From: a bacterium
GTDB lineage: Bacteria > Elusimicrobiota > Elusimicrobia > Elusimicrobiales > UBA9959
Direction of reading: 5' to 3'
DNA length: 59,978 bases
Assembly: GCA_021811405.1 (NCBI GenBank)
Contig: JAJZOZ010000002.1
Span: 1 to 59,978, forward strand
A program made the translations under genes and the position numbers. Below are positions 19,801 through 50,160 of this stretch, in pieces (within the stretch, counting starts at the first letter, position 1; each line of letters opens with the position of its first letter). Below the pieces are notes generated by a model that worked only from the letters and a program-made list of their open reading frames with translations, ran no database searches and was not told the DNA's origin.

Positions 19801-19843
19801 AATTAGCGTTCCTAAAAACAACAATACCGCCGCGCGGACGCGG

Positions 19844-22800
19844 TCAGGGACCGATGCTCAGCACGTAGGTCTTCCCGTCCGAAGACCCGACTATCAGTGT
19901 CAGGCTGCCGGTGTCTATCACGGGATCGGCGCGCACCGGACCGCCGGTGGGCACGGGCCAGCCGGTCCTCAGCTGGCCCGTATTCACGTTCACCGCGTAG
20001 ATATAGCCATCGTCGCAGCCGAAGTAGGCGTAATCCTCTCCGGCGGGCAGACCCAGCCACGTCCCGGGGATCACCACCGGCGAGGAGCGTATCGGTCCGC
20101 CCGCCTGGAAGCTCATGATCTCCGTGCCGCTGGCCGCGTCCACCTTGTAGAACCGGCCGGCGTCGTTGCCGAAATAGACGTACTTGCCGGTATCGAGGTC
20201 CTTGAAAGGCGACGTGTAGATCGGGGACCCGGAGGGGAAGTCGGCCCAGCCCGACGGCTGAGTGGTCAGGTTGGCCGAGGTCCTGGCGTAGAGCTTGCCG
20301 TCGGTGGAGGTTATATAGAGGTTGTTGCCTCCGAGGTAGGCGGCGTCGGCGAACGGCGAGGACTTGATGGCGGCTCCGGTCTGGAACCAGCTGGAGATGG
20401 CGCCCGAAGCGGTAAGGAAGCGCACCACCTTGCCGTCCTCCAGGCCTATCCAGGAGGCGTTCACGCCCGGCGTGCGGTCGTCCAGCGCCAGCGTGCCGGA
20501 GATGGCGGCGGTGAAGCCGGCGTCGTAGGTCCAGCCGAGGCAGTCGGAGCCGTCGGCCTTGTTGAGGCAGTAGACCCTGTTGTCGGCGGCGCCGAAATAG
20601 AGCTTGGCGCTGGAATCTATCGGATTGGAGACCACCGAGACCCCGAGGGGGCGCTTCCAGATCTGCTGCGAGGAGGCGTCGTTGTCCCTGATCTTGTAGA
20701 TGTCGCCGGCCACGTCCGCGAAGTAAAGGTATACGCCGCCGGACTCCTCGCGCGCCATCGGGGAGGTCTTCACGGAACTGAGCGGGAAGGTCAGGAAATC
20801 CCACTTGGAAGTGCCGTCCAGCCTCAGCCCGCGCAGCGTGCCGTCCAGTCCCGGCACGTAGACGGCCGACTGCACCAGGCCGCCGGTGTAGTAGTCTACG
20901 GGCGCCGTCACTCCGGCCTGCGTGCCCGCGTCGAACGGCCAGAAGGTGCCCGCGGGCGGCTTGGCGGACACTATGATGACCGTGGAGGAGGTCTGCACCG
21001 CCGCGCCTGCCGCGGGCGCCTGCGGCTCGGCGCTGGGGACGTCGGTCAGCACCAGGTCCGTGGAGGGATCGAAGCTTACGCGGAACGCGTTGGGCGTCTG
21101 CGTGGAGGCGTACTGCGCGGCGGTGAAGACCACGAAGTAGGCCGCCGTGGAGGCGGCGGGCGTCCAGGCCGCGGCGGCCGGCGGCACCGGCAGCAGCAGC
21201 GTTCCGGAGGCGTCCAGCGTGATGCCGGAGTTCGGCAGCGAGGCGGTCACCTGGGTATCCAGTCCCGACTCGTAGAGGCCGCTGGTGCCTCCGGCCGAGT
21301 CCTTCACCAGGGAAACGCCGGAGAAGAGGCTCCTGGCCTGGGCGGTGTTCAGCGGAACGAGACCGGGGTCCAGCAAACGCACGGTGACGCTCGCCAGCGC
21401 CACCGAATTACGCCCGGAGAGGCTCGTATCGTCCACCCTGATGGCGACCATCGAGCCCGAATAGCCCTCGCCCAGCCTCAGCGGCGCGGTGGGCGCGGCG
21501 CTGACGGAATGCACGGCGGCGTCGTAGGTCACGCCCGCGCGTACCACGGGCGGGGCGGAGACCGCCCCGTTATCGGTGTTCAGGACGAGCTTGTACGCCG
21601 CACCGTCCGAGAGGCCGCGGCCGTCCTGATCGTAGAAGGATATCCCCAGCTGCGAGGTGGACTGGGCGGCCAGCGAGGCCGGGGCGAAGCCGATGTCGGC
21701 CAGCCGGTAGAGATGCGGCGAGTAGTTGTCCGCCGCGCCGCCGGTGCGCGTAAGCACCAGGTAGTTGCCGGTCCCGGCCGAGGAATCGGCGCCGAGGGTC
21801 AGCCGCAGCGGGAACCGGCGCGGCAGTATCTGCGAGGCCGCGGGATAGGCCAGCGTATTCGCCGCTCCCTGGCCGGCGCCGTTGTTGCGCGAGGCCGGCG
21901 TGGCGGAAGCGGAAGCCGCGAAGTCGGCGGCGTTGCTGCCGGTGTCGGACCCCTCCGAAGGGCTCCTGCCTATGGAGCCGGACGCGTTGGCCGGCGCCCA
22001 GGCCGCGGCGCTGACCAGGGCGGACTTGTAGTTGCGCAGCGAGTAATTAGCGCCGGACTGCCAGGTCACCCGGTCCACGGTCTGCCCGGCCGCGTTCTCC
22101 AGCGCCGCGAAGTCCCCGGCGGCGTTCAGGCCGGAGGCGCCGAACACCGACGCGTAGGGCAGGGCCTCGTCGCTGAGGGAGGAGGCGTCTATCAGCGCGT
22201 AGGAACGGGCGTAGATCTTCCTGGTGAACCTGAAGCGGCCGTTGTACGAGCCGCGCAGGTAATAGCCGGCCAGCGCGGGCGTGGAGGCGCCGGTATTGTA
22301 GAGTTCTATGAACTGGTCCGCTAGGGCGCCGTAGGCCACCTCGTTTATCTTGACCGGATCGGTGGTTATCGCGTTGGCGTAGCCTTTCGTGGGCGTGGGG
22401 TCGGCGTCGAAGTAGTCGGCGTTGCCGTCGGTGACGCGCGCGAACGAGCGGCCGGACTGCAGCGCGGGCCACTGCACCCTGTCCACCACGTTGCCGCCGG
22501 AGTCCTTCAGGATCAGGTGATAGCTCTGCGCGCCGTTGAGGTCCAGCGACGGGGCGGCCGCGAAGAAGCCGTTGACGTTGACCGTATCCACGCTGGTACC
22601 GGTCCAGACCGTGGTCTCAAGTCCCGGCAGGTCTATGGAGCCCTGATCGTAGACCAGTTTCCAGCCGGTCAGGGTTATCGTGGAGGCGGTGTTGTTGAAG
22701 AGCTCCACCCAGTCCTCGGCCGCGGTGGCGCCGGCCGCGTAGACCTCGTTGATATAAAGATTGGCCGTCTGCGGCGGCGAGGAGGCCTGGTTGGACAACG

Positions 22801-25800
22801 GCGAGACGTTATTGGCCTTGTCGGTGGTCTTCACCGCGAAATAATAGGTCTTGCCCACGTCCAGGCCGTAGAGCACGCGCTGCTCCGGCTGGCCGGCCGC
22901 CGCCGGCGCCCAGGCCTGCGCGTAGGTGCTGGCCGCGCTGAACAGCGCGTCCGTGATTATCTGGAAGGTGGCCAGCTTGACCGTGTAGTAGCCGCCCGTA
23001 TTGTCCGTAACCGCGCCGTCGTCCCCGGGGGCCGTCCAGGACAGGCTCACCGAACCGCGCACCGGTCCGGGGGCCGCGGCCAGGCCCGTTATCGCGGCCG
23101 GCGGCTGCGTGTCCTTGAGTATCCGGAACGCGTCGACCAGCGTGGTGGTGCTGGAGGCGTTGTCCATGGCGCGCACGCTGATATAGTTGGTGCCGTGGCC
23201 CAGCAGCGAGAAGTTCAGCGCCCAGTTGGACGTGTAGATGGAGCCCAGAGTGCCGGAGGAAATGACGGTCCAGCCCAGCGTCTGGATGCCGGTCCGGTTG
23301 GGACCGCTGGAGGCCGAGTACTCCAGGCTGCTCAGGCCGGAGCCGCCGGTATCCGCGAAGTCCACGTCGTACACCGCGCCCTGCGCGGCGTTGCGCCAGG
23401 CCCCGTCGTAGCCGGCGGCCAGGTTATTGGTGACCGTGGGCGGCGCCGTGTCCTTCTTCACGTAGAAGGCGTCCGTGATGACGGGAGAGCTGTTGCCTGC
23501 GCTGTCGCGCGCCCTGACCGTCACGTAGCTGATCCCCTGCGGCAGCAGGTCCCACGTGCCCTGCGCGAACTGCCAGTCGGCGGTGTAGGAATCGGCGTTG
23601 ATCCCGGATACCTGGTCGGTCCAGTCCTGTACCAGCGCGCCGCCGCCGGCGGGCTGCGAGAGCACCCTGGTCTGCACCGAGGCCAGGTGCGAGCCGCCGG
23701 AATCCGTCGCGTCGATGTTATAGAAGACGCGGGAATTGCGCCAGGAATCGTCGCCGGCCTGGTTGTCTATCACGGTAGGCGGCACCGGGTCCTGCCTGTC
23801 GAACGCGATGCCGGCCGGCTCGTAGCTGAAGTCGGACACGGTGTTGGTATGCTGGAAGTTGGACGAGGCCGCGGTGCCGGCCCACGAAGTGCCGCCCCAC
23901 AGCGTGGTTTTCAGGTTCCCGGAGATATCCATCCCCAGCGCGGTGATCTTGTTGGTGTTCGGGTCCGGGTACAGCGCCAGCAGCCTGATGTCGTTGGCGA
24001 AGGTGGTATTGGTATTGGCGGTGGTCACCGACGGGCTGGCCGGCGTCCACGTGCCGCCCGACCAGGTTATGTAATCGAACTGCGTGTCGAAATTGCCGAT
24101 ATTGTCCACGGCGGCCGCCAGGAACCTGCCCGACTGGGATTCCCAGGCGGCGTCCGTGATGCGGCCGAGATTGGAGGACATGGAGGTGTCCGCCGCCGGG
24201 GAGGCGCTCCAGGCCTCGGTGCCGAGGGTGGACTGCCAGATGGAGACGTACCAGCCGGGCGACACGGTCATGATGCTGGCGCCGAGGCGGTTAGTGGTCG
24301 GGTCGGCAGCGACGCGCAGCCAGTAGACCGAAGTGGAGCCCACCGCGGGACCGGCCGGGGTGGCCGCGTCCCACGTGGACGAGGCGGAGCGCCAGATCTT
24401 GTAGGCCGTGGCGGTGCCGGCACCCCACAGCGCCACGGCGTTGCCGCTCTGGCTCTCCCAGCCGCCGTCGAAGCACTCCGTGGTCGCCATGGACGCCGCG
24501 GTGGTCAGGTTCTGCACCGAGGTCCAGGCGGAACCGGTCCAGACCGCGGCCGTGAGGCGGCCGTTGGCGTCCAGGGCCATCAGCAGCACCCTGTCGGTCC
24601 CCGGCATGGCCTTAAGCCGCACCCAGTTGACGTCGCCGGTCAGGCCGGTCAGCACGAGCGGCGCGGGCGCGCCGGCCCAGACGGAGGCGGTAGCGGACCA
24701 CACGGCGTAGGAGACGGTCCCGAGCGTACCGTTGTTATACACCGCCAGCATCCTGCCGGTCAGGCTTTCAGGGGCCAGGTCGAACTTGCGCGTGGCGGAG
24801 CCGCCGGGCGCCGGCGCGGGCGAAGGCGTGATGTCGCTCCACGCCGAGGCGAGCCCGTCCCACTTCAGCAGCTTCAGGCTGTTGTCGGAGGCCAGGAAAC
24901 CGCCTATCTTGGCGTTGGCGACTACCGGGACGGACTTCAGCACCGCCCAGCGCACCGTGGCGCCAGTGACCAGCGAACCGCCCTGCGCGCCCCAGATATC
25001 GGGCGTCCAGTTCCGGTAGACCGGGATATTGGACGCGCCGGAACCGTAAACTATCATGCCGGCGGCGGCCCCCGCCGGCGTGGCGCTGGAGACGGGAACG
25101 TTGGAGATGGGACCAACGTTGCCGGCCTCGTCCACGGCCTTTACGGCTATGGAATAAGTGGCGCCGGGAGTGAGGCCGTCCAGCACGCGGATCTCGGGCA
25201 GGCCGTAGGCCGCCGGCGACCAGGTCTGCGTATAGGTGGAGACCGCGGGCGAGGCGAAGTTGGCCCCGGTGATGAGGAACGGCGCGTAGCGCACGATGTA
25301 GGACGTCGCCGTACCGGCGTTGGCGACGCCCTTGACGCCCTCGCCCGGGGCCGTCCAGGTAAGGGATATCTGACCCTGGAAATCGGCCATTACGGCGGCC
25401 AGGTCGGCGATGGCCCCCGGCGGCGTGGTGTCCGTGCCTGCGTAGGAAGAGGTCGGGTTGCTCAGCGGCCCGGAGTTGCCGGCCTTGTCCACGGCCTCCA
25501 CGGCGAGATAGTAGGTGGCGCCGGCGGTGAAGCCGCTCAGGACCAGGCCTTCCGGCGAGCCGGCGGCCTTCGGGACCAGCGTGGAGACGTAGACGGCGGC
25601 CGCGTCGAAGTCGGCCTGGCCGGTGAAGGCGGAACCGGTCTTGTAGCGGATCATGTAATAGCTGGCGCTGCCGGTCAGGTCGCTGTCGCCGGGGGCGGTC
25701 CAGGACGCGTCGATGCCGCCCTCGCCGGCCTGGCCGGCGGAGGGAACGGCGGTCAGCGTGGTTATGGCCGACGGCGGCACCGTATCCTTGAGGATGTAGA

Positions 25801-43800: not shown

Positions 43801-46800
43801 AAACGCCCCACGGCGCGGCGTAGGAATTATCGTACGGCGTGCCCGAGGAGATGAAAGTCCAGTCCAGCCGCCTGGTACCGGTCTGGCCGGGGCCGGTCCA
43901 GGCCGTGTACTGTATGCTGTCTATTCCGGAGCCGCCGGTATCCGCGAAGGAGACGTTATAAACGCTGCCGGGGTTGGCGTTGCGCCAGGCGGCGTCGCCG
44001 GACTGGGAGTTGGTTATCGCCAGCGGCACGGTGTCCTTGAGCACGTAGAACAGGCTGTCCGCCGAGGCGGTGGAGTTGCCCACGTTGTCGTAGGCGCGCA
44101 CGCTGACGTAGGCGGTGGTGCCGCTGGGGATGGCGTTCCAGGCCGCGGCCGGCAGGGCCCACGGCGAGGAATAGGAGGAGGAGTTGATGCCGGAGGCGAT
44201 GGTGGTCCAGTCGTAGAGCGTGGTGCCGGTCTGCGAGGGCCCGGTGGTCAGCTTTACCTGGAAATAGGAGAGCAGCGAGCCGCCGGCGTCGTTGAAGAAG
44301 ACGCTGTAGAGGCCGCCGTTGGCGTTGCGCCACTTCGTATCCCCGGCCTGGGAGTCGTTTATCGTAGGGGTGGAGAGGTCCACCAGCAGCGAGCGGTAGG
44401 CGCTGAAGGCGGAATAGTTGCCGGCCGTGTCGCTGGAGGCAGCGCGCCAGTAATAGGTGCTGCCGGCCACCAGCGGCAGGGAGGCCGCGGAGACCGCCGG
44501 CTGGCTGGAGTACGAGATGGTGGTGAAATCGGTGGAGGTGGCCAGCTGCAGCAGGTAGTTGGTGACGCCGGAGCCGGAGCCGTCGGAAGAATCCCCCCAG
44601 TCGAAAGAGAGGGCCGCGCCGTTGGTCTTGTAGCCGTCGGCCGGGGTCAGGAGCGAAGGCACCGAGGGTGCGGTGGTGTCCTTGAGCACTTTGAAGGCGT
44701 CTGTCACCGTGGCCGTATTGCCGGCCACGTCGTAGAACTCCACCGTGATATAGTTGGTGCTGTCGCCGCCCAGCGAGGCGAAGGCGACCTGCCAGGGCGT
44801 AGTGTAGGAAGGGCCCGAGACCCCCGTGATGGCTACGGAGGAGACCTTGAGCGCCCCGTTCTGGCCGGGGCCGGTCCAGGCGCTGTAAATGGCGCCGTTC
44901 AGCCAGGACCCGGCGGAGTCGGCGAACCTGAAGTCGTAAGCCGTCCCGGCGGCCTTGCGCCAGGTCAGGTCCCCGCCGGCGACGTTGTTGGTATACGCGG
45001 GAGGCGTGGTGTCCTTGAGCACCCTGAAGGCGTCGGTCACCGTGGTGGTGTTGCCGGCTATGTCGTAGACCTCCACCGTTATGTAGTTGGTGGCGTCCCC
45101 GCCCAGTCCCGCGAAGTTCAGCGCCCAGTCCGCGGTATACGAAGCGCCGCCCACGCCGGCCAGCGCCGTGGTGGAGAAGAGCACCGCCCCGGCCCCGCCG
45201 GCAGCCGCGCGGGCCGCGTAGACGGCCCCGGCCAGTTTGGAATAAGGGTCGGCGAAGTCCACGTTGTAGTTCCGGCCGGCCTTGCGCCAGGTCAGGTCCC
45301 CGCCGGCCTCGCCGTTGGTCACTACCGGCGGCACGGTATCCTTGAAGACCTTGAAAGCGTCCGACAGCGTCGCCGTGTTGGTGGAGTAGTCTATGGCCCT
45401 TACCGAGATATAGTTGGTGGTCCAGCTCTGCAGGCTGGTCCAGAAGGCGGCGGGCAGGGCCCAGTCTGTGGTGTAATAGGTGGCATTTATCGTCAGCGGC
45501 AGGTCCACCCAGCCGCCGCCGAAGTCGGTGCCGGTCTGCGCGGGCCCGGAGGTGGCCCGCACCTGCAGCTTCGAGATCAGCGAGCCCCCGTCGTCGTTGA
45601 AGTCCACGTCGTAAAGGCCGCTGTTCGTATTGCGCCAGACCTGGTCGCCGGTGCCCATGTTGGAGGTTATGACCGGCGTCGAGAGGTCCACCCGGAAGGC
45701 GCGCGTGGAGGAATAGACGCCGGTGTTCCCGGCGTTGTCCAGCGACCGCACGCGCCAGTAATAGTAGTTCTGGGCCAGCGCTGCCGGCTGCGCCATCGAG
45801 GCCAGCGGGCTGGAGCTGTAGGTGACGGTCGCGAAGTCCGCGGAAGTGGCCACCTGCAGCTCGTAGTTCTTCAGGCCGGAGCCGTCTATGTCGGTCACGT
45901 CCTCCCAGTCCAGCAGCGGGGGGCTGGCGTTCAGGTTCACCCGGTCGACCGGGACTATGGCCGCCAGGGCCGGCGCCGGAGGGCTGGAATAGTCCACGCC
46001 GAAGTCCGGATTGCCGCCCTTGTTCACCCAGCGCCCGCGGCCGCCGTCCCCGAAACCCGCGGCCCGCCAATGATAGACGGTACCGGAGACCAGCCCCGAG
46101 ACCACCGCGTAGCTGGAGGCCGCCACGGTATTATAGTTGAAGACCGGGCCGGTGGAAAGGGCGCTCTCGTCGAAAGCCGCGGCGTTCGGCTTCACCTCCG
46201 CCACCAGCGCTATATTGTCCACGTTCATCGAGCTGGCCAGCACGCCCTCGAAGCGCAGCTCCCGCGCGTTGGTCCAGGCGCCCTGGGCGAGGGCCGCGCC
46301 GTTGGCCTTCTGCACGAGCGACTCCGGCAGCTTGGGGAAGGGCACGAAGCTGTAATTTATCGCCGCGCGGCCTCCCATCAGGCCGCGGGAAGTGCTGAGC
46401 GCGTAGTTGGCGGTGACCACGGCGGGGAAGGTACTGAACTGCACCAGGTTCTGGTAGAACTGGTTTACCGTGCAGTCCTCGGTGGTCGTGCGGTGAAAGG
46501 CGGTTTCCGGAGCGTTGCCGTTGAAATCCACCGTGGTATTGAAGTCCTGCGTGGTGCCGCTGTTGTTCAGGAAGTCGGTATAGGTATAGGCCTCGCGCAG
46601 CGTCTTGGTACCCTCCGTTTCCGGGTACCAGGCCCCGAATGGGAAAGTATCGCTGGGTACCGTGCCGTTGGTATCGTTGCCGGCCAGCACCTCGTAATCG
46701 TCCGTATGGGCCGCGCCGTTGGTATAATCGTACGTTATTATCAGTTCCATGCCGTGCGCGCCGGTGGCGCTGTTGGCCGCGTAGATGGTTGTTCCCACCT

Positions 46801-48052
46801 GGAGGCCGTTGGTCCAGCCCGCCGAAATGGCCGCCGAGGTCATGTCGTGGAAGAACTGATAGCCGGAGATCTGCGCGAACTGCGACTGTACCGCGTAGGA
46901 GCGCTGCGGCACTGCTACTCCGCCGATGGAGGAATCCACCGGCATGGCGGAATTGGTGGAGGAATCGTAGGAACCCACTATGCGCGCGTATGCGCGCCTG
47001 ATCGTTATCCCCTCCTCGCGCAGGAACACCTGCGCGCCCAGTACGGCGTCCGTGACCGCGGCCAGACCCTGGCCTATGAAGGTCTTGGCCGTCTTGGTCT
47101 TGACCGCCGAGTTGCTGTCAGCGATATAGGTAAGCACCACCTCGCCGCCCAGCGTATTGACGGGGCTCTGGACCGTCACCACGTTCAACGTCTGCACGGT
47201 GCCGGTGGAGAAGCCGGGCATGATGTCGGAATTGGACAGGTATCTGAACTCGTAGGAATCGCGCCGGGAACCGTCCATGTTCATGGTGGGCTCGGCTGCA
47301 TAGCCGCTGATCCCCGCGTAAACAGTGCCGTCGGCGGTGGAGCCGCCGCTCTGCCTGAAGCCGCGCAGCTCCACCCACTGCTGCTGCAGGCTGTAGCCGG
47401 AATCCGCTATCCCGGCCAGGTACTGCAGGGTCCTGGCGCCGGCCGGCTGCTGGGCGGTATAGGCCGCTATGCCGTTGACATAGTCCGAATAGACCGGGAA
47501 ACGCACCGTCTTGGCCACCTGCGGGGACTGGTCGTCGTACTCGTAGGTGACGTACAGCGTCATGCTGTGCATGTTGCTGGCCGGCCCGGTGATGGCGACC
47601 CCGGCGGTGAACTGCGCGCCGGCGGCCAGGTTGGCCAGTTGCGCGCTGATGACGGAGGTCACGTCCGCCCTGGCGAAAAGGCGTATGGACTCGCCTGACT
47701 GGGCCGTATACTGGACCGAGGTGAAGCGCGCGGTATTAGCGGCCGCTCCGGCGTCGAAGTAAATGACCAGCGGGTTGATATTGGTGGCGCTGACCGCTAT
47801 GCCCTCGTAATGCAGCCAGGCGCTGCGTATGACCTTGCCGTTCTCCGGCAGCTTTATGGTCCTGGAAGTGAAGGTCGTCTTGGAGCCGGAAGTCTTGTCG
47901 GTATTCGAGTAATAGCCGCCGAAATTGTACTCGACGGTCTTTATCTGCGTATCGGCCGCGGCCGGGGACGCGCAGAGCGCGGCGCAGAGCAGCAGCAGCG
48001 GCCGCAAAGCGGCCCGCCACGCTCTTCCGTTATATCCAGCGGCCTTCGGCAT
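19844..48052 (-). CDS. Giant secreted multi-repeat surface protein (~9,402 aa)
   Basis: A single uninterrupted frame (track 19844..48538). It is trimmed to ATG 48052 because the upstream 486 nt overlap the well-supported Rrf2 gene in another frame. MPKAAGYNGRAWRAALRPLLLLCAALCASPAAADTQ is a good Sec signal peptide. Domain content is listed in the sub-features. Confidence 0.9.
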   Translation of the reverse strand: MPKAAGYNGRAWRAALRPLLLLCAALCASPAAADTQIKTVEYNFGGYYSNTDKTSGSKTTFTSRTIKLPENGKVIRSAWLHYEGIAVSATNINPLVIYFDAGAAANTARFTSVQYTAQSGESIRLFARADVTSVISAQLANLAAGAQFTAGVAITGPASNMHSMTLYVTYEYDDQSPQVAKTVRFPVYSDYVNGIAAYTAQQPAGARTLQYLAGIADSGYSLQQQWVELRGFRQSGGSTADGTVYAGISGYAAEPTMNMDGSRRDSYEFRYLSNSDIMPGFSTGTVQTLNVVTVQSPVNTLGGEVVLTYIADSNSAVKTKTAKTFIGQGLAAVTDAVLGAQVFLREEGITIRRAYARIVGSYDSSTNSAMPVDSSIGGVAVPQRSYAVQSQFAQISGYQFFHDMTSAAISAGWTNGLQVGTTIYAANSATGAHGMELIITYDYTNGAAHTDDYEVLAGNDTNGTVPSDTFPFGAWYPETEGTKTLREAYTYTDFLNNSGTTQDFNTTVDFNGNAPETAFHRTTTEDCTVNQFYQNLVQFSTFPAVVTANYALSTSRGLMGGRAAINYSFVPFPKLPESLVQKANGAALAQGAWTNARELRFEGVLASSMNVDNIALVAEVKPNAAAFDESALSTGPVFNYNTVAASSYAVVSGLVSGTVYHWRAAGFGDGGRGRWVNKGGNPDFGVDYSSPPAPALAAIVPVDRVNLNASPPLLDWEDVTDIDGSGLKNYELQVATSADFATVTYSSSPLASMAQPAALAQNYYYWRVRSLDNAGNTGVYSSTRAFRVDLSTPVITSNMGTGDQVWRNTNSGLYDVDFNDDGGSLISKLQVRATSGPAQTGTDFGGGWVDLPLTINATYYTTDWALPAAFWTSLQSWTTNYISVRAIDYSTNTATLSDAFKVFKDTVPPVVTNGEAGGDLTWRKAGRNYNVDFADPYSKLAGAVYAARAAAGGAGAVLFSTTALAGVGGASYTADWALNFAGLGGDATNYITVEVYDIAGNTTTVTDAFRVLKDTTPPAYTNNVAGGDLTWRKAAGTAYDFRFADSAGSWLNGAIYSAWTGPGQNGALKVSSVAITGVSGPSYTTPWQVAFASLGGDSTNYITVEFYDVAGNTATVTDAFKVLKDTTAPSVPSLLTPADGYKTNGAALSFDWGDSSDGSGSGVTNYLLQLATSTDFTTISYSSQPAVSAASLPLVAGSTYYWRAASSDTAGNYSAFSAYRSLLVDLSTPTINDSQAGDTKWRNANGGLYSVFFNDAGGSLLSYFQVKLTTGPSQTGTTLYDWTTIASGINSSSYSSPWALPAAAWNAIPSGTTAYVSVRAYDNVGNSTASADSLFYVLKDTVPLAITNSQSGDAAWRNANPGSVYNVSFADTGGSGIDSIQYTAWTGPGQTGTRRLDWTFISSGTPYDNSYAAPWGVSASSWPALAEGYNYISVRVWDVAGTTTSLDDVFYVLKDTTAPSAQDGMAGGDAQWQKDPGKLYNVDFYDTGGSLLNAIEYSVWSEPGQKGTQRKTWSPIVTAPLGAASYIADWPVDFTSLAEGAATNYVSLRFTDLAGNSSTYADAFYISKDKTLPTIADNQFGDDSWRSSSGTAYDVGFADAGGSLLSSFELRITTGPALTGTLVQDWAAQQSAINSASYPAGWKLAQAQWDALPAGISYVSARVTDNAGNQQANNDVFYVLKDTSPPSIADNQPGDSSWRAVSGLYNVDFADEGGSLLSGFQVKATTGPGQTGTLAADWTDAATGINAASYAADWQLPSAFWNLLPSGTSYISVRVFDHAGSTVSLTDAFYVLKDTSAPVIANGQAGDDAWRRFGGTAYTVGFGDAGAGLASAAYEAWTGPGLTGVNAVPLTAIPGVSGAAYSVPWSVDFSLLAQGTNYISVTVTDQLGHSAALQDAFRVLKDNGSPVITDNQAGDDVWRGTGGTLYNVDFGDLTSGLTTAQYRVTSLPAQGGTVLKDWTGIVYSPGGLSSYTTDWPVDFAAIPSGTTGYVSVRVYDNAGNPAQVNDAFHVLKDTVPPYMVIVSTPADGYGPYLANPGAVFDVDFFDAGGSGIAAPQYRVTEGPGGTGALVKDWTNIATLSGATYYTQNWGADFYSLAQLPATNYFSLRVTDLAGGTSDYADAFKLFRSSFPMGLAINQAGDAVWRTANNGTYNVDFFSNNAALNLSSFSVQAWTQPGRTGELSADWAKVLDINATYYYTDWSLPQPFFDSLKETTNYISVRLWNVNSTSMTVEDVFYVRKDTSPPVITDLQGGDNIWRASAGTVYNIDFADPGSLLTTAQYRISGLPAQAGLLLKDWTDIVSSPAGQPSYTANWPVDFAALQSWTTGYVSVRAYNQAGLSASANDVFYVRKDTTPPYAVSLEAGATYYQSSNGRLYNVDFHDPGQESGLLRYQLRASTHTGNYAPYLLDWTDAANISGGNYASDWPLPAAIWDSLDSGVTAYISVRVFDAALQSSDTYNAFSVWKDTAPPYVTVNQPGDDTWRLTDPGAVYDVDFGDLGSGATTAQYRLYSGPGGTGTLLKDWTDIFGAPAGTPLYSANWAVDFAAAREGANYVGVRVFDRGGLATAAQDAFYVLKDTTPPVIADNQAGDYAWRGSPGTLYDVDFFDRASGLSAIEYRVSTAPALGYPVSDWLPANILTGYPTYYTDNWSVSFSTLAENTTNYISVRAYDRLGLASVSSDVFKVFKDVTLPAIADNQPGDDLWRNSSGTLYGVSFADAGGSLLSRFQTLLMSGPAQTGAQIAGWTDILSGIGSASHSAPWALPESLWQPLPEGQSYVSVRVYDNAGNAREISDVFYVKKDTTPPSIADYQGGDGVWRAANTAVYDVRFADTGGSLLEGARVKLTEGPAQTGAVIADWTPVLSNINAASYSTPWPLTAALWNAIQSGVTAYVSVDVADGAASTTTLSDAFYVLKDTVPPTAADLQSGDAAWRNSNAGAYAVHFADEGGSLLSKVQVKASSAPAGAGAHAFGYTDLLTGIGSASYPSDWQLTPALWSLLLPGTNYISARVYDNAGAFSDYADVFYILKDTQPPSGTVTPPAFSGALGFNVPYSASDAGPSDVQYVKLYYTMATGVPYSWTQFGTTFSASPIAFTAPAGGTAGFRLVVYDKAGNRDETDPPTSDTPPEAATVVDLTPPSVVNNQTGDAVWRNAGGTLYNVDFSGGGGSLLSAAQYKATSSPAQGGTVLKDWTYIAQNINAANYSADWAVDFAALKSSFNYVSVRVWNQAGTTTTANDVFYVKKDTEAPAFADNQAGDDVWRQADPGAVYNVGFNDPYSLLSRVQYSASSVPGGASGNIKGWTDIASGISAASYSQSWGVDFLSLTSGVTAYISARAYDLAGNVAVSTDAFYVLKDTVPPASADNQAGDDVWRASNSGLYNVDFADAGGSRLLKAQYGAWTSTGMAGAGLVPWTDISPSPAWLTSYTADWQLSAGAFTLLQSGTSYVSVRVMDNAGSTTTLADVFYVRKDVAGPAISGNQAGDDAWRSANTGVYDVDFADQLSGLASFEVKVTTGLNQSGTVLADWTPVSALSGASYTANWALPPAVFAAMREGANQVSVRALDSAGNGSALSDAFYVRKDTSGPVITDNQAGDDVWRASNSGLYNVDFADDKSLAAKFQLKAMTGAGQTGTLLFDWTDAVAGINAASYTADWSIPQAQWDLLAPGTSYISVRAFDMAGSTSSLADVFYVRKDTAPAPAIGALAGVTGAEGVIALSWTAPDDGGAAVSSYLVKFSSYIVIAAGNFDTADTYTQSWTPVGPGSPESYNLTGLAPNTAYHIAVKSVDRAGNISAVSNTATASAGPDTTPPGAITDLAAQQGGFDGQIALSWTAVGDNGVSLGTATAYQVRYRTDQAVTSALLWDGANIYAQAWVPQYPGVPEAQGIDNLTPGVTYYWAVKAVDEVANTSPLSNSPSAPAKVGEGTPGMFMFGNGTGNTPYVRKWTPPSFAGVQTSLAANAAAGAVARHVIVRASPLRNEKLAGILFSDGTLQIQRYNGLNGQWTNEWSTTTIGATDSAYRGFDIAYEQNTGRAVVLYQGAAVGTLYYNIYDGSSWTGAQTLAAGDPAAAAVWVRLEARPGSSELMAAFSNLSSNQLTAARWTGSLWSDVTTIVNNLGLTTYQNFDVAWESLSGHCLVSYGGTAVTGKAITWLWNGVSWAQFTTTEFTFIGADGNSNWLRLASDPNSNYIGAASIDSVRDWNAAIWDGTGWFPSATENASVARNGNQSRTIDAAWTRDGKFVVASAHRSLPTVLYSYWSQAGGWATTLAAAYSVGNWSNVVYGVELEPDTKSNNLMLTGWSSSRDLRGAAWSGSVFTLDPTPHTTTISDRNYMPAMLAIDRHDIVPPTVTDNQPGDDAWRGTNTGVYNIDAADTGGSHLRGIQTRVYSGPNQTGALLEGWTTQVSTSGVDVYTADWPLSAGTWAAMKEGYNYVTVRSTDGSDNTSLAPITDAFYVKKDTTPPTLPALSLPADGAFLKDPAVFFDWTDSSDLASGVAAYELQVATSADFAAPAYSAAPSVSGSTSAALASGMYYWRVRAVDLVSNYSAYTSTRAVYVDTAPPVAVDAQAGDDVWRNASGTLYAVHFNDAGGSLLDTVSYAVYSGPGRTGAQLVPFSGGVIASGIAAPAYNSDWALSPTNWALLPNGTSYVSVQSSDRAGNSASSDDVFYIRKDVSAPVITDNQPGDDVWRAVPGALFNVDFADAGGSQLAGFQLKITSGPNQTGTVLSDWFYRATAVNAASYAQDFDLGISTWLLLPEGTSYISARAWDNAGNSSTLTDAFYVRKDTSPPSAVAGVSPADGKVTNSASPLLDWTDAADAGSGISGYEVYVATSQDFAVNYASAATAGSQYPASLPSGLFYWRARARDNAGNYGAYGSTFSVRVDTAPPAVADAQAGDDAWRSAGGTLYNVSFADAGGSHIDSLEYSAWSGPGRTGVNHIPWTVITSTPLGSDSYSSTWGVDFSLLGDGTNYVSVRVWDAAGSTVTAQDVFYVKKDAYSPAIVDNQPGDDVWRAAPGALFNVDFQDTGASLLSKFQLKITSGPNQTGTVLSDWFDRSAAINSASYTQDFDLGISTWLLLPEGTSYISARVWDNAGNSASLSDVFYVRKDTTPPSITDSQAGDDVWRPVNSGSYAVSFADTGGSRLSYFQVKATTGPAQTGTITADWTTVASGLAAGSYPGGWTLPQAVFDSLASGLNYLSVRVYDGAGLSAALSDAFYVRKSTAAPRILDNQAGDDVWRNAPGTLYDVDFEDSGASGLSAAQYKVTSAPGQGGTLVKDWTYIASGINAPSYTADWAVDFAALAEGVTNYVSVRVWDVAGATTAVSDVFYVRKDVTAPSVANNQLGDAAWRSSSGTVYNVDFADAGGSGLSRFEVKVTTGPGLTGTLVADWYPQAASINSNSYTADWALPASTFTALPEGPGMVSVRVYDNAGNSAELDDAFYVMKDTTPPSAPAAVSPADLAPRATLSPLLDWTDSSDGSSGIAGYELRAATSASFSPVAYSAAPAASQQAAALPSGATWYWQARARDNAGNYSGYSAYYRVLADTVAPVVTDSQPGETNWRNSDPGAVYNVPFSDDMTGLDTMQYSAWTGPGQTGSNSVPWTVISSGTPRLAYPGPWSVNFSLLAAGTNYISARAWDAAGSTATRSDVFNVLKDTSAPAMLDNQAGDDVWRAANPGAVYDVDFLDLYSGVATIQYRITSQPAQGGTLLADWTDVASGLAVSTYSANWGLSAASWSLLPEGASYVTVRAYDRLAQSSLLADVFYVRKDTTPPTASDNQADIALARSQADVNAMNVDFHDTGGSLLSKAQYAVWTQPGRTGGEVVTWTDIAAGINAADYLADWPVNYMALPNLAVSYVSARVYDNAGGVSYYNDVFSVYKEGSGPLIINGQAGDNAWRAANTGLYNVDFQAESGFNLDYFQVTAATSAAAPSYLVAWTSAAYNIGSTVYTADWSLPQAVFDALAPGRNYVSLAVFDLLPSSSTLGNAFYVLKDTVPPSLGLNQAGDAAWQNAAGKTYNVDFFDPLSGLSTAQYRITTLPAGAGAVLKDWTDIAYPTGAASYTADWPVDFSALQEWTTGFVSVRAFDELAQSSASADAFYVLKDTTPPAAVSQSSPADGALFSTGAVSFAWTASSDLRSGVSAYELQLSTSQEFAQVSASSVTAAASASVSGLAGGAYFWRVRAGDAAGNYAAWSSTRSFTAATSSPTITNGQASPTPWYLSDPGAVFNVSFQDLVSGLTTGQYRITAAPAEGGTLVKDWTDIFSTPSGSAGYSAAWPVDFAALREGQNYVSVRAFNRVDFSSKAVDAFVIRKDTSAPAIADNQAGDTTWRRASGAVYDVDFSDLGSGLATAQYRITSAPAGGGTLLKNWTGIFSSTGIASYTANWGVDFFALAEGATNYVSVRAFDVLGSSRELADVFYVLKDVTNPAILNNQPADNLWHASDPGAVYNVGFSDLGGSRLDRFQTRITSGPAGTGTLAQDWTDRVLAINATYYNQLWGPDFAVLGEGQNYVSVRVYDGAGNSAQQADVFVVRKDTTPPSVQNNQAGDYVWRGANTGVYNVDFADAGGSGVDHFQVKATTDAAGAGTPLFDWTTLVSAINAQSYTADWQLTSQLWDLLGPGTSYISVRVFDTAGSSAALAGAFHIRKDTRTVTLTDNQLGDDVWRSSGNALYDVDAQALGGSPLDRFEVRSSTLPGNLGPFTSGWTAAVSGLNAYTYTADWGLPAPVFDAMLSGQSNYVSVRAYNQAGLFAELADVFYVKKDTVAPQVTNNIAGGDLSWRNGPGALYNVDFADAGGSLLSGFELRVSTVPGAGPYLFDWTPIQTGIGAASYTTDFAIPPSSFSLLAEGATNYVSLSAYDVAGNTSTVADAFRVFKDTTPPSLADNQAGDSYWRNSSGTVYNIDLADTGGSNLSKVQARASYNAGTLGPWYFDWSDAVTGINAASYTADWPLPQTLWDLLGEGTSYISVRVWDNAQSSATFGFQPFFILKDTTPPAFVNGEAGGDAAWRSAGRAYNLDFADPMSGLAALEYSASTAPASADGGVKGWTAIAGPSGALYSADWPLDFAALREGVTNYVSVRAWDVAGSTAVLKDAFYVKKDTTPPTAQNLQSGEFSWRNSNGGVYSVHFADTGGSLVSKFQLKASTGPGGTGIQAFDWTDNITGIGLASYPVDWPLSLGVWNSLYDSATNYVSVMVFDGAGSTYTITDAFRVLKDTTPPAVTGNQAGDGVWRTAAGTLYDVDFADYGSLLSSAAYSAWTGPGLTGAQVKGWTQLFSSRTVLSTSDWAVDFAALAEGYNYVSVRAWDVAGNMGAASDVFYVRKDTSPPSVADLQDGDTTWYKANPGPVFDVDFSDSGIGVSTAAYEAWTGPGRTGAQVAPSTPIFSGAPLPAYTQNWGVYGADWALLAPGTNYITVTAWDALGHSSTSVDVFYILKDTVPPSAITTLTAVPSAGQAGEGGIDASWTAPGDSDLTGSASYYMIRYKTGSAFTGQADFDAAAVYVSTLVPKAAGSPEGLVLSGFTAGATYYLAVEAVDKAGNSGPLSNPTSSYAGTDTTPPGAIADLAAVMADFQGQISLTWTAPGEGVKGVANAGTATSYIVRYAPFLITGANFASPAVSTYTQTWSPAAYGLPEIRVLDGLTPGATYSIAVKAVDEAGNVGPISNVPVSSATPAGAAAGMIVYGSGASNIPVYRNWTPDIWGAQGGSLVTGATVRWAVLKSVPVVANAKIGGFLASDNSLKLLKWDGLASAWSDITPSPAPAPGGSATRKFDLAPESLTGRMLAVYNNGTLGTVSYAVWSATASVWAGAPAPLVLTGLTGDVNWVRLKAMPGTDRVLLMALDANGRLTAAVWTGSAWTSVQNLTTAASMATTECFDGGWESQSGNAVALWGAGTATAYKIWRSASSTWDAATPAGPAVGSTSVYWLRVAADPTTNRLGASIMTVSPGWYVSIWQSTLGTEAWSASPAADTSMSSNLGRITDAAWESQSGRFLAAAVDNIGNFDTQFDYITWSGGTWTPASPSVTTANTNTTFANDIRLLALYPDPNTNKITALGMDISGNLKTTLWGGTSWAGTAASSNFQHTNTVSDFSYEPAGIAFDRQDPVPPTVIDNQAGDDSWRNSRVFYNIDATDSGGSHLASVQTRVLSQPAGGGALVQDWTDQVSGINADSYTADWQFAQGTWDLLPQGISYVTVRARDSAGNSSPVITDAFYVKKDTAPPTVTNNLAAGYDGAWRNAAQGAVYDVDFADTGGSGLSSLEYSASSGPNRTGIQTLGWTVISSGTLGSIYTSNWALNFSLLGHGTNYISVRAMDNASSTTTLVDAFRILKDTQPPAAITGLAAAPGPVRGSVSLSWTAPGDDGAVTDNTGGYYTVKLATFQIITDALFSAASTYAQAWAPAAAGQPEQRVLYGLDVGKTYYFAVKTTDKANNVSPLSNQASSPPQTANLYINEVYAAGATAAEDWVELFNNTASTITLTGWKLVYDQGSIDLPGLETTVWTGTSVDTVNVNGFFAAAPSLDLNGAQSYHLILKDSGGNVVDRVQWPALQSGRSFARVTDGNADYFDADPTPTKGYANAITTDPVKINEVAYGALADQFIELYNTGASTPALAGYYLRGSYNGRFRFTRKIYARSYALIDASSLSDEALPYASVFGASGLNAAGDFAALENAAGQTVDRVTWQSGANYSLRNYKSALVSAAAWAPANASGSIGRSPSEGSDTGSNAADFAASASATPASRNNGAGQGAANTLAYPAASQILPRRFPLRLTLGADSSAGTGNYLVLTRTGGAADNYSPHLYRLADIGFAPASLAAQSTSQLGISFYDQDGRGLSDGAAYKLVLNTDNGAVSAPPVVRAGVTYDAAVHSVSAAPTAPLRLGEGYSGSMVAIRVDDTSLSGRNSVALASVTVRLLDPGLVPLNTAQARSLFSGVSLVKDSAGGTSGLYESGLDTQVTASLPNSGITLDASGTLLLPVPPAAAAWTPAASTAAYFVVFTAAQYASTQTPNAFRVSFDPSTDLVLTDVPSAEPQAPAAGAAVQTSSTVIIVSAKPPAGTFWPFDAGTQAGVTAPVDYYTGGLVQSAVYVPGLDGTLRGLRLDGTSKWDFLTFPLSSVKTSPMAREESGGVYLYFADVAGDIYKIRDNDASSQQIWKRPLGVSVVSNPIDSSAKLYFGAADNRVYCLNKADGSDCLGWTYDAGFTAAISGTLALDDRTPGVNASWIGLEDGKVVRFLTASGAISSWFQTGAAIKSSPFADAAYLGGNNLYITSTDGKLYARTSANLTTQPSGWADFPSGSPIYTSPFKDLDTGKYVYFGNDAGRFYKVDAASGTEIMSFQAGGPIRSSPVVIPGTWLGLPAGEDYAYFGCDDGYIYAVNVNTGQLRTGWPVPTGGPVRADPVIDTGSLTLIVGSSDGKTYVLSIGP
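19847..20900 (-). other. C-terminal PQQ/BamB-like beta-propeller domain of the giant protein (approximate bounds)
   Basis: Repeated blade motifs: GDIYKIRD, NRVYCLNKADGS, GKVVRFLTASG, GKLYARTS, GRFYKVDAASGTEI, GYIYAVNVNTGQLRTGW, GKTYVLS. Confidence 0.7.
21900..22760 (-). other. Two tandem lamin-tail domains (LTD) in the giant protein (approximate bounds)
   Basis: LYINEVYAAGATAAEDWVELFNNTASTITLTGWKL...GNVVDRVQW and VKINEVAYGALADQFIELYNTGASTPALAGYYL...GQTVDRVTW match the LTD pattern (INE..EWIELYN...L.GW.L....D.V.). Confidence 0.7.
23790..25060 (-). other. W-rich propeller-like insert 2 (~420 aa) of the giant protein (approximate bounds)
   Basis: GMIVYGSGASNIPVYRNW...FDRQDPVPPTV. It is paralogous to insert 1 and is preceded by two FN3-like domains (25090..25780). 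Confidence 0.55.
32750..33075 (-). repeat. Recent intragenic duplicate, copy 1 (offset 966 bp from copy 2)
   Basis: Shares exact runs with 33716..34041. One example is GGAGGTGCCCTCCGGCAGCAGCAGCCAGGTGGAGATGCCGAGGTCGAAATCCTGCG at 32828..32883, matching 33794..33849. Another is a ~42-nt run, GAACCAGTCCGAGAGCACCGTGCCGGTCTGGTTGGGGCCGGA. Confidence 0.8.
33716..34041 (-). repeat. Recent intragenic duplicate, copy 2
   Basis: See copy 1. The encoded modules (..FQLKITSGPNQTGTVLSDWF.R..A.N.ASY.QDFDLGISTWLLLPEGTSYISAR.WDNAGNS..) are about 85% identical. Other module pairs are clearly more diverged by eye (not quantified). Confidence 0.8.
35050..36295 (-). other. W-rich propeller-like insert 1 (~415 aa) of the giant protein (approximate bounds)
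   Basis: GMFMFGNGTGNTPYVRKW...IDRHDIVPPTV. It has recurring ..A(A/V)W.G..W.. strands roughly every 55-60 aa. It is preceded by two FN3-like domains (36330..36980). Confidence 0.55.
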
Positions 48053-48063
48053 ACCCGTTAAAT

Positions 48064-48474: not shown

Positions 48475-48540
48475 AAGAAAGCTCCGGCGCCTTACAAGCT
48501 GTATCGCCGCTACGCGGCTGTTTTATTCCAGCGACCAACA

Positions 48541-48606: not shown

Positions 48607-48646
48607 ATTGATATCAATAGTATAGCAGAGGCCGGTCTTGTGTCAA
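48607..48646 (-). promoter_or_regulatory. Near-consensus sigma70 promoter plus a 12-bp palindrome at the predicted start site
   Basis: The minus strand reads TTGACA (48646..48641), a 16-nt spacer, then TATACT (48624..48619). ATTGATATCAAT (48618..48607, a perfect palindrome) follows immediately. Confidence 0.45.
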
Positions 48647-50025: not shown

Positions 50026-50160
50026 TCAGGAGAACTTCTTGAGGGTCTTGCAGGCCAGCTGGCTGATGGGGCCGCTCGTGCATTTGCCGCAGGCCAGCGC
50101 GGCCTTCTCGAAGACCTTCTCGGTCTTGATGGAGGGCTTTTCGTATTTTTTCTTTTTCAT
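50026..50160 (-). CDS. Unannotated 44-aa candidate RiPP precursor peptide
   Basis: My translation is MKKKKYEKPSIKTEKVFEKAALACGKCTSGPISQLACKTLKKFS*. AGGA lies about 8 nt upstream. It is below the size cut-off of the ORF track. It is flanked by PqqD (19 nt upstream) and the peptidase-like gene (2 nt downstream). Confidence 0.6.
   Translation of the reverse strand: MKKKKYEKPSIKTEKVFEKAALACGKCTSGPISQLACKTLKKFS

What the first reader, a model, noticed from the sequence alone, without database searches (positions are those of the whole stretch)
19844..48052. Uninterrupted ~28.2 kb gene encoding a ~9,402-aa secreted protein
Seen: one open frame with no stops, and a Sec-type signal peptide at ATG 48052. 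The architecture runs as follows: a unique ~790-aa N-terminal region, about 50 modules of ~112 aa, and about 6-7 FN3-like units of the YYWR(V/A)RA.D.AGN type. Then come 5 classical FN3-like units, 2 W-rich propeller-like inserts, 2 LTDs, a ~330-aa unknown linker and a PQQ-like propeller. The sum of my domain estimates (~9,395 aa) matches the ORF length. Established: bacterial proteins of more than 9,000 aa are very rare. Known ones are mostly adhesins, and giant genes adjacent to pilus/T2SS-like genes have been reported from uncultivated Omnitrophota. Inference: this is a cell-surface adhesin or contact-dependent protein. No catalytic domain was recognised by eye.
Basis: partly seen in the sequence, partly recalled or inferred. 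Interest (0 to 1): 0.9.

Follow-up and report, generated by a model that had tools for sequence, protein, structure and literature searches.

The report
Giant Elusimicrobiota surface adhesin-like fibre gene
The 28.2-kb gene is real and encodes a 9,402-residue secreted fibre of about 62 Ig-like domains with predicted sugar-binding modules; it is a repeat-expanded member of an uncharacterised surface-protein family found across Elusimicrobiota, so it is interesting but not unique.

Summary
There is one stop-free frame at 19844..48052 (-), starting at ATG 48052 with a Sec-type signal. It has a unique head, 50 modules of ~111 aa, 6+1 'YYWR' units, 5 FN3, two ~440-aa inserts, two LTDs, a ~370-aa linker and a PQQ/BamB-like propeller. 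The gene is not an assembly artefact: it has no repeated 77-mers, GC3 is at least 0.84 throughout, and two independent assemblies agree (dN/dS 0.17 over 4,287 codons). The organism belongs to Elusimicrobiota, not Omnitrophota. The head is four tandem jelly-roll sandwiches. The inserts model as seven-bladed propellers closest to PLL-type lectins. The head defines a family of several hundred clusters, whose complete members of 3,074, 4,148, 4,521 and 6,457 aa keep the same domain order. The window gene is therefore a repeat-expanded orthologue. It meets no defining feature of T1SS, T5SS, T9SS-cargo, LPXTG or PilY1 adhesins. The new information lies in the locus. A radical-SAM/SPASM–PqqD cassette with a conserved 44-aa three-Cys peptide sits upstream in 31 relatives. 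An S26-like peptidase from that cassette is fused in frame to the giant gene in several genomes. A T9SS-type CTD protein and a PorV-family barrel lie downstream. Best reading: a lectin-bearing surface adhesin. Its export and anchoring route is unknown.

The parts
19844..48052 (-). Giant gene, 9,402 codons plus stop
47954..48052 (-). Sec-type signal peptide (aa 1-33; predicted cleavage after AAA, before DTQIKTVE)
45995..47953 (-). Conserved head (aa 34-686): four tandem ~145-aa jelly-roll sandwiches plus one FN3-like domain. No Pfam family.
   Evidence: AF2 pLDDT 82.7, pTM 0.87. Only generic jelly-roll matches. D1-D3 are homologous. No Pfam hit. 645 clusters in the family.
36992..45994 (-). Stalk 1 (aa 687-3687): 24 modules, 2 YYWR units and 1 divergent unit, joined by KDTTPP linkers
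36353..36991 (-). FN3 pair 1 (aa 3688-3900)
35048..36352 (-). Insert 1 (aa 3901-4335): predicted seven-bladed W-rich propeller, PLL-lectin-like
   Evidence: AF2 pLDDT 80.7, pTM 0.85. Foldseek PLL/PHL/BP39L, target-normalised TM 0.64-0.69. No Pfam hit.
25790..35047 (-). Stalk 2 (aa 4336-7421): 24 modules and 4 YYWR units
25121..25789 (-). FN3 pair 2 (aa 7422-7644)
23792..25120 (-). Insert 2 (aa 7645-8087), paralogue of insert 1 (30% identity)
22778..23791 (-). Two modules and the last FN3 (aa 8088-8425)
21983..22777 (-). Two lamin-tail domains (aa 8426-8690)
   Evidence: Pfam LTD, 94 bits
20873..21982 (-). Conserved linker of unknown fold (aa 8691-9060)
   Evidence: No Pfam, NCBIfam or PDB hit. 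Conserved in L026, L048 and L051.
19847..20872 (-). C-terminal PQQ/BamB-like beta-propeller (aa 9061-9402)
48064..48474 (-). Rrf2-family regulator, 11 nt upstream of the giant gene; first gene of the putative operon
48619..48646 (-). Near-consensus sigma-70-like promoter (TTGACA-16-TATACT, 11 of 12 matches, TG extension)
48667..49701 (-). Radical SAM/SPASM maturase
49694..50023 (-). S26/S24-like peptidase (GSSMLP motif), no transmembrane segment; fused in frame to the giant gene in other genomes
50026..50160 (-). 44-aa three-Cys putative RiPP precursor MKKKKYEKPSIKTEKVFEKAALACGKCTSGPISQLACKTLKKFS
50180..50452 (-). PqqD-family peptide chaperone
50449..51252 (-). P-loop protein with weak similarity to HprK-related kinase/ScmC; homologues in L009 and L010 carry NTP_transf_5
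51234..56938 (-). Minor-pilin-like set: two PilX_N-like paralogues (458 and 426 aa), a 168-aa pilin and an 855-aa PilV-like pseudopilin
16648..19800 (-). Downstream partner: PQQ propellers, FN3 and a T9SS type-A C-terminal sorting domain (about 1,050 aa)
15097..16632 (-). PorV/PorQ-family outer-membrane barrel (511 aa)
   Evidence: NCBIfam PorV_fam, 164.8 bits against a cut-off of 90

Best explanation
The gene encodes a Sec-exported, cell-surface fibrillar adhesin of an Elusimicrobiota bacterium.

Shown:
- An N-terminal signal peptide.
- A conserved ~650-aa head of tandem jelly-roll sandwiches.
- A stalk of about 62 Ig/FN3-like domains joined by KDTTPP linkers.
- Two embedded domains that model as seven-bladed propellers closest to PLL-type lectins.
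- A conserved tail made of two LTDs, an unknown ~370-aa region and a BamB-like propeller.
- Purifying selection on the protein.
- A family-wide domain order in which only the number of stalk modules varies, from about 3,000 to 9,400 aa.

Inferred:
- The stalk holds glycan-binding modules (the head and the two propellers) about 0.25 micrometres from the cell, so that they can bind carbohydrates on particles or on other cells.
- The C-terminal tail is the cell-proximal end and docks on the co-transcribed CTD protein, which has propellers of the same family, and on its PorV-family barrel.
- Transcription starts at the promoter upstream of the Rrf2 gene.

The route across the outer membrane is not identified.
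For: - The ORF is real and under constraint: (97.5% aa identity, no indels, dN/dS 0.17 over 4,287 codons).
- Extracellular character: one hydrophobic segment only, 8 Cys in 9,402 aa, acidic composition.
- Stalk.
- Lectin-like inserts.
- Jelly-roll head.
- Family and conserved domain order.
- Tight operon with the CTD protein and the PorV-family barrel (gaps of about 43 and 15 nt), also found in L026, L046, L051, L076 and L077.
- Promoter.
- PorV is known to bind CTDs (PMC5562754), and PorP-like barrels anchor type-B cargo (PMC9143113).
Against: - No binding was tested. The lectin assignment rests on fold only (~12% identity, query-normalised TM 0.55).
- The head matches nothing specific.
- The giant protein has no recognised anchor or outer-membrane secretion signal: no CTD, RTX repeats, TPS domain, barrel, LPXTG motif or lipobox.
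- Which end is attached to the cell is unknown.
- T9SS is not documented in Elusimicrobiota, and my literature search found nothing.
- PorV is adjacent only in this species among the loci I could see.
- A related strain carries an amber codon just before the tail.
Confidence: 0.6

Rival explanations
1. PilY1-like pilus-associated adhesin. The protein would be exported by Sec and carried at the tip of a type IV-like filament, with its C-terminal propeller seated on the minor pilins encoded upstream.
For: - Four co-directional minor-pilin-like genes lie upstream and are conserved in L013, L015 and L029.
- A Sec signal combined with a C-terminal propeller is the PilY1 layout (from my own knowledge).
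- Some stand-alone insert homologues begin with PilX_N-like segments.
Against: - The propeller belongs to the PQQ_2/BamB family. No PilY1/PilC hit appears in Pfam, NCBIfam or PDB sequences.
- The pilin genes are separated from the giant gene by the RiPP cassette and a promoter.
- The pilin genes are absent upstream in most relatives.
- Head-domain relatives occur in archaea and CPR bacteria.
Confidence: 0.12
2. The giant protein is itself a client of the upstream maturation cassette. The S26-like peptidase would remove its leader, the radical-SAM enzyme would modify it, or the modified 44-aa peptide would bind to it. The locus would then be one functional unit, not two neighbouring ones.
For: - The cassette lies directly upstream in 31 of about 40 Elusimicrobiota-type loci.
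- The S26-like domain is fused in frame, with no stop, to the giant gene in L043, L047, L048 and L049, and in P0005, P0027, P0028 and P0037.
Against: - The cassette has its own conserved three-Cys precursor, which is enough to explain the PqqD and rSAM genes.
- The giant protein is almost free of Cys.
- The S26-like protein has no membrane segment, so it cannot act at the periplasmic face.
- Synteny could instead reflect co-regulation, for example peptide signalling through Rrf2.
Confidence: 0.15
3. Artefact or pseudogene: a chimeric or collapsed repeat assembly, or a gene no longer expressed.
For: - A 94.5%-identical strain has an in-frame CAG-to-TAG change at Q8422.
- L076 has a frameshift in the last FN3.
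- Most relatives are cut at contig ends.
Against: - There are no repeated 77-mers, and the contigs carry k141_ names, which suggests a final assembly k-mer of 141.
- Two independent assemblies are collinear without indels.
- dN/dS is 0.17 and GC3 is uniform.
- Frames of more than 4,000 aa stay open in relatives with 29-33% GC.
Confidence: 0.03

Closest known systems
Fibrillar adhesins of Gram-negative bacteria exported by T1SS (LapA, SiiE, MpIBP)
   Same: Thousands of residues, a long stalk of tandem Ig-like domains, and ligand-binding (including sugar-binding) modules displayed away from the cell.
   Different: Those proteins lack a Sec signal, end in RTX repeats with a T1SS signal, and sit next to ABC/MFP/TolC genes. 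None of these features is present here.
SprB and other T9SS cargo adhesins of Bacteroidota
   Same: A Sec signal, a giant repetitive surface protein, and a dedicated outer-membrane barrel gene downstream (SprF/PorP there, a PorV-family barrel here).
   Different: The giant protein has no type-A or type-B CTD. The CTD sits on the neighbouring 1,050-aa protein instead. The phylum is not known to have a T9SS.
Giant proteins of Omnitrophota (West-Roberts et al. 2023, bioRxiv 10.1101/2023.11.21.568195)
   Same: An uncultivated lineage, a giant gene, pilin-like genes nearby, and attachment domains inferred from structure prediction.
   Different: According to that paper, those loci have GspD/E/F-type secretion genes, and most of the giant proteins have transmembrane regions and divergent SecA DEAD helicase domains. 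Here the phylum and architecture differ, and no secretion ATPase or secretin lies in the window.
PLL-family seven-bladed propeller lectins (Photorhabdus PLL/PHL, Burkholderia BP39L)
   Same: The best structural match of both inserts: a W-rich seven-bladed propeller.
   Different: Identity is about 12% and there is no family-model hit. The known lectins are small soluble proteins, whereas here the domain is embedded in a fibre. Sugar-binding residues were not checked.
PilY1/PilC tip adhesins
   Same: A Sec signal, a C-terminal propeller, and minor pilin genes nearby.
   Different: A different propeller family, no vWA domain, eight times the size, and the pilin linkage is not conserved.

Membership tests
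T1SS RTX adhesins (LapA/SiiE/MpIBP) | C-terminal RTX nonapeptide repeats and a T1SS signal; no Sec signal peptide | tested here: not met
   Pfam and NCBIfam on the last 1,102 aa give only LTD and PQQ/BamB hits. An N-terminal Sec-type signal is present.
T1SS RTX adhesins (LapA/SiiE/MpIBP) | Adjacent ABC transporter, MFP and TolC genes | tested here: not met
   Among the neighbours scanned, the only transporter is a convergent ABC-2 pair.
T5SS (two-partner secretion or autotransporter adhesins) | N-terminal TPS domain or C-terminal beta-barrel translocator | tested here: not met
   No such hit at either end. The head models as jelly-roll sandwiches.
T9SS cargo (SprB-like) | C-terminal type-A or type-B sorting domain on the cargo itself | tested here: not met
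   No Por_Secre_tail or type-B CTD in the giant protein. TIGR04183 scores 32.7 bits against a cut-off of 23 in the next gene instead.
T9SS cargo (SprB-like) | Cognate PorV/PorP-type barrel encoded nearby | tested here: met
   PorV_fam scores 164.8 bits against a cut-off of 90 at 15097..16632.
T9SS cargo (SprB-like) | T9SS core genes (SprA/Sov, PorK/L/M/N) in the genome | not testable with these tools
   Only 60 kb of the genome is available, and none of these genes is in the window.
LPXTG-anchored giant adhesins (Ebh/Bap type) | C-terminal LPXTG motif, hydrophobic segment and charged tail | tested here: not met
   The protein ends ...GKTYVLSIGP inside the propeller, and the only hydrophobic segment is at residues 14-32.
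PilY1/PilC | C-terminal PilC-type propeller (PF05567) | tested here: not met
   The propeller hits PQQ_2/Beta-prop_ACSF4 and BamB. No PilY1 chain appears among PDB sequence hits at E up to 1.
PilY1/PilC | Encoded with a minor-pilin set | tested here: inconclusive
   The pilin set is present 3-9 kb upstream here and in L013, L015 and L029, but it is absent in most relatives and separated by a promoter.
Fibrillar adhesin (general kind) | Stalk of tandem Ig-like repeats | tested here: met
   About 62 sandwich domains.
Fibrillar adhesin (general kind) | Adhesive domain with demonstrated or family-level ligand binding | tested here: inconclusive
   There is only fold-level similarity of the inserts to PLL lectins and a generic jelly-roll head.
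Omnitrophota giant proteins | [quoted passage not shown] | tested here: not met
   Relatives are Elusimicrobiota. No such genes or domains were found.
Elusimicrobiota head-domain family (unnamed, defined here) | Signal peptide, (T/R)IKTVE...TYEYD jelly-roll head, stalk, FN3 pair, W-rich propeller, two LTDs, linker and PQQ propeller, in that order | tested here: met
   The same order is found in L026, L048, P0027, P0035 and P0037. The closest relative, L012, has 92% identity in the head.

The most novel reading that the evidence does not exclude
The giant fibre and the upstream radical-SAM/SPASM–PqqD–S26 cassette, with its 44-aa three-Cys peptide, form one conserved system. Either the cytoplasmic S26-like protease and the rSAM enzyme mature the giant protein itself, or the modified peptide is a ligand or signal that acts through the Rrf2 repressor to control fibre display. 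In addition, the fibre would be held on the cell by a minimal CTD-plus-PorV module working outside Bacteroidota. That would be a new way of maturing and anchoring giant adhesins in a phylum with no described outer-membrane route for them.
Probability: 0.15. Interest if true: 0.8.

Novelty: new variant of a known kind. Interest (0 to 1): 0.55.

Why it matters
Elusimicrobiota have been flagged statistically as unusually rich in proteins over 5,000 aa, with no function assigned (PMC11573180). This window holds one of the few uninterrupted copies of what appears to be a phylum-wide family; most relatives are cut at contig ends. It therefore gives a full domain map, three domain types with no Pfam model (head, lectin-like propeller and linker), and a conserved gene neighbourhood. 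Together these turn 'giant hypothetical protein' into testable hypotheses: glycan binding, anchoring through a CTD protein and PorV-family barrel, and a link to a RiPP cassette. If the adhesin reading is right, the protein is a candidate for how these very small cells attach to particles, hosts or partner cells.

Tried and rejected
- **Exact-sequence look-ups:** The TTG-start version of the downstream protein found nothing.
- **Unannotated regions:** Pfam, NCBIfam and PDB-sequence searches of the four head subdomains, the insert and the linker found nothing, even at E up to 1.
- **Head fold searches:** Foldseek against PDB and against viral models gave only generic tandem jelly-roll matches with TM below 0.2. 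No function follows from them.
- **PilY1 membership:** rejected on sequence.
- **Omnitrophota origin:** rejected.
- **Repeat collapse:** rejected.
- **The rSAM cassette acting only on the giant protein:** weakened once a conserved precursor peptide was found.
- **Contexts of stand-alone insert homologues** (P0014, P0019): uninformative.
- **Literature searches** for Elusimicrobia with T9SS, RiPP or large surface proteins found nothing specific.
- **tRNA scan:** empty.
Full report
**1. Is the ORF real?**

The mechanical ORF runs 19844..48538 (-) from a TTG. Positions 48064..48474 (-) hold a separate gene in another frame with GC3 0.88, which Pfam identifies as an Rrf2 regulator. The first in-frame ATG, at 48052, is preceded by GGAGGA. 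It yields 9,402 aa beginning MPKAAGYNGRAWRAALRPLLLLCAALCASPAAA|DTQIKTVE.

GC3 is 0.84-0.94 in all eighteen 1.5-kb windows of the frame. By my estimate a random 68%-GC sequence has about 0.02 stops per codon, so a chance open frame of this length is excluded.

The repeats have diverged at the DNA level. The longest exact internal repeat is 61 nt and no 77-mer recurs.

An independent ENA assembly (ERZ27236928, locus L004) matches window 11905..26632 at 99.92% identity without gaps, and its gene fragment is 7,121 aa. A second strain (ERZ27237563, locus L077) is 97.5% identical in protein over 4,287 codons, with no indels and dN/dS 0.17. The gene is therefore real and under purifying selection.

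**2. Anatomy**

HMMs iterated on the protein itself give the following map:

| Region | Residues |
|---|---|
| Signal peptide | 1-33 |
| Head | 34-686 |
| 50 modules of ~111 aa | first at 789, last ending at 8312 |
| Six 'YYWR' FN3-like units | starting at 687, 1124, 4450, 4777, 5436, 6092 |
| One divergent unit | 3026-3114 |
| Five FN3 | starting at 3688, 3800, 7422, 7540, 8313 |
| Two paralogous inserts | 3901-4335 and 7645-8087 |
| Two LTDs | 8426-8690 |
| Linker | 8691-9060 |
| Propeller | 9061-9402 |

All the sandwich types recognise one another at the HMM level and are joined by KDTTPP-like linkers. Pfam confirms fn3, LTD and PQQ_2/Beta-prop_ACSF4, and gives only weak Big_13/Big_3_3 hits for the modules.

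The protein has a single hydrophobic segment (residues 14-32), eight Cys in total, and is acidic.

The only amendments are that the head is ~686 aa rather than ~790, and the linker is ~370 aa.

**3. The parts without annotation**

- **Head.** It has no Pfam or NCBIfam hit. With nine homologues it models confidently (pLDDT 82.7, pTM 0.87) as an all-beta array. Subdomains D1-D3 are homologous to one another (hhalign 88-97%), while D4 is divergent. Foldseek returns only generic tandem jelly-roll proteins (Cry protoxin, reelin, PNGase F, BcsB, capsids) with TM below 0.2.
- **Insert.** It models (pLDDT 80.7, pTM 0.85) as a propeller of about 28 strands. Its best PDB matches are the seven-bladed PLL/PHL/BP39L lectins (target-normalised TM 0.64-0.69), followed by the fucose lectins AAL, AFL and RSL. 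Identity is about 12%, so this is a resemblance of fold, not membership of the family.
- **Linker.** It matches nothing.
- **C-terminal propeller.** By sequence it is closest to designed propellers (Cake/Scone), to an archaeal PQQ-repeat protein (3HXJ), to chains named 'cell surface protein', and to BamB. PilY1 is not among the hits.

**4. Whose gene is it, and is it a family?**

Head homologues in the protein database all come from Elusimicrobiota MAGs and are all cut at contig ends. A scan of GTDB species genomes found 64 loci. Most are Elusimicrobiales or Endomicrobiia, and the best has 92% identity ('Elusimicrobia bacterium clean1135'). Remote relatives occur in Firestonebacteria, Desantisbacteria, Aenigmatarchaeota, Woesearchaeota and Saccharibacteria/Patescibacteria.

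A profile search of 1.84 billion representative proteins found 645 clusters at E up to 1e-3 and 104 at E up to 1e-30. Part of this count comes from matches to the FN3-like end of the profile alone.

In most loci the frame stays open for the full 4,000 aa that could be read, including genomes of 29-33% GC.

Complete relatives keep the same order (head, stalk, FN3 pair, propeller insert, two LTDs, linker, propeller) but differ in size:
- L026: 3,074 aa.
- L048: about 4,046 aa.
- P0027: 4,148 aa.
- P0035: 4,521 aa.
- P0037: 6,457 aa, with two inserts like the window gene.
- P0026: a near-orthologue fragment of 6,986 aa.

The window gene is thus the longest seen here, but it is a repeat-expanded orthologue and not a singular object.

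Literature context:
- 7,478 gap-free proteins of at least 10,624 aa exist in BV-BRC (10.1101/2023.11.21.568195).
- Elusimicrobiota are reported as enriched in proteins over 5,000 aa, with no COG assignment (PMC11573180).

**5. The neighbourhood**

*Downstream.* After a gap of about 43 nt lies a protein of about 1,050 aa with PQQ propellers, FN3 domains and a T9SS type-A sorting domain (TIGR04183, 32.7 bits against a cut-off of 23). After a further 15 nt lies a PorV/PorQ-family barrel (164.8 bits against a cut-off of 90). The CTD protein also follows the giant gene in L026, L046, L051, L076 and L077.

*Upstream.* An Rrf2 gene ends 11 nt before the giant start. It is preceded by a near-consensus promoter at 48646..48619.

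*Further upstream.* In order come a radical-SAM/SPASM enzyme, an S26/S24-like peptidase without a membrane segment, a PqqD chaperone and a P-loop HprK-related-like protein. Clustering the small ORFs across loci revealed a conserved 44-aa peptide gene at 50026..50160 (-), MKKKKYEKPSIKTEKVFEKAALACGKCTSGPISQLACKTLKKFS. It is present in 26 loci including the window and matches no NCBIfam model. The cassette is therefore a RiPP-type cluster with its own three-Cys precursor.

The cassette lies directly upstream of the head-domain gene in 31 of about 40 Elusimicrobiota-type loci. In L043, L047, L048 and L049, and in P0005, P0027, P0028 and P0037, the S26-like domain (GGSMRP motif) is fused in frame, without a stop, to the signal-like segment of the giant protein. 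Fusion of two genes in some genomes is classic evidence that they work together, but what the link is remains open.

*Pilin-like genes.* Four minor-pilin-like genes (PilV-like 855 aa, pilin 168 aa, and two PilX_N-like paralogues) and a GT2 lie further upstream. They are conserved only in the closest relatives.

**6. Mechanism**

*Shown:*
- Sec-type export signal.
- Extracellular-type composition.
- A very long modular stalk.
- Fold-level lectin modules.
- A conserved head and tail.
- Selection on the protein.
- Tight operon structure.

*Inferred:*
- The fibre is a glycan-binding adhesin. At about 4 nm per Ig-like domain (from general knowledge), 62 domains give roughly 0.25 micrometres.
- The tail is the cell-proximal end and docks on the CTD protein and the PorV-family barrel.

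*Unknown:* how 9,400 residues cross the outer membrane. Every defining feature of T1SS, T5SS, T9SS-cargo, LPXTG and PilY1 adhesins that could be tested on the protein itself was not met (see the membership table).

Confidence: 0.6 for the adhesin reading, and much lower for the anchoring model.

**7. Caveats**

- Strain L077 has CAG changed to TAG at Q8422, exactly between the last FN3 and the first LTD.
- L076 has a frameshift in the last FN3.

These could be sequencing errors, decay, or natural variants that shed the tail.

**8. Verdict**

- **Observation:** confirmed.
- **Interpretation:** partly supported. The adhesin reading holds. The Omnitrophota analogy and the rarity claim do not.
- **Novelty:** a new variant of a known kind, namely a giant fibrillar adhesin belonging to an uncharacterised Elusimicrobiota-wide family.

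The conserved link to a RiPP cassette and the S26 fusions are the most novel lead.

Noticed in passing
window 50026..50160 (-): Unannotated 44-aa three-Cys peptide gene lying between PqqD and the S26-like peptidase. It is conserved in 26 loci including the window (motif Y.KP.I.(T/S)EK(V/I)(F/I)E.AAL(A/S/G)C(G/K)KC...C) and matches no NCBIfam model. It is probably the precursor of an undescribed rSAM/SPASM RiPP.
   Followed up: partly
L043, L047, L048, L049 (about 9540..10000); window 49694..50023 (-): The S26/S24-like peptidase (GGSMRP motif) is fused in frame, without a stop, to the N-terminus of the giant-protein homologue in several genomes. In the window it is a separate gene, 1.6 kb upstream of the giant gene's start.
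   Followed up: partly
L077 about 9920 (equivalent to window 22787..22789, codon Q8422); L076 about 5550: A 94.5%-identical strain has an amber codon exactly at the FN3/LTD boundary, and a 52%-identical relative has a frameshift in the last FN3. Both would detach the tail made of the LTDs, linker and propeller.
   Followed up: partly
window 48619..48646 (-): Near-consensus extended -10 sigma-70-like promoter (11 of 12 matches) in the 192-nt gap between the rSAM and Rrf2 genes. It suggests an operon of Rrf2, the giant gene, the CTD protein and PorV.
   Followed up: no
window 51234..52610 and 52573..53853 (-): Two paralogous proteins of 458 and 426 aa with PilX_N-like hydrophobic N-termini and GGGN-rich C-terminal parts, next to a 168-aa pilin and an 855-aa PilV-like pseudopilin. 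Neither paralogue has a Pfam family.
   Followed up: partly
L053, L055, L059-L064, L066-L070, L072, L074, L075; P0055, P0065: Remote relatives of the jelly-roll head occur in DPANN archaea and in Patescibacteria. In several archaeal loci the same large ORF also carries a PQQ propeller. P0055 (7,063 aa) and P0065 (7,591 aa) carry several head-like copies and a W-rich, insert-like region.
   Followed up: no
window, gene positions 10075 and 10750 (about 37978 and 37303): The longest exact repeat (61 nt) recurs at a spacing of 675 nt, which equals two modules. This suggests a recent two-module duplication as the unit of stalk expansion.
   Followed up: no
window 59030..59974 (+): ORF running to the window end with a UBQLN1/STI1-type domain hit (E 3e-8), a domain family mostly seen in eukaryotes.
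   Followed up: no
window 6691..13464 (-): Complete PTS regulatory block: hibernation factor, HPr kinase, RapZ, EIIA/B/C/D of the mannose family, HPr and enzyme I. These are ordinary housekeeping genes flanking the locus.
   Followed up: no
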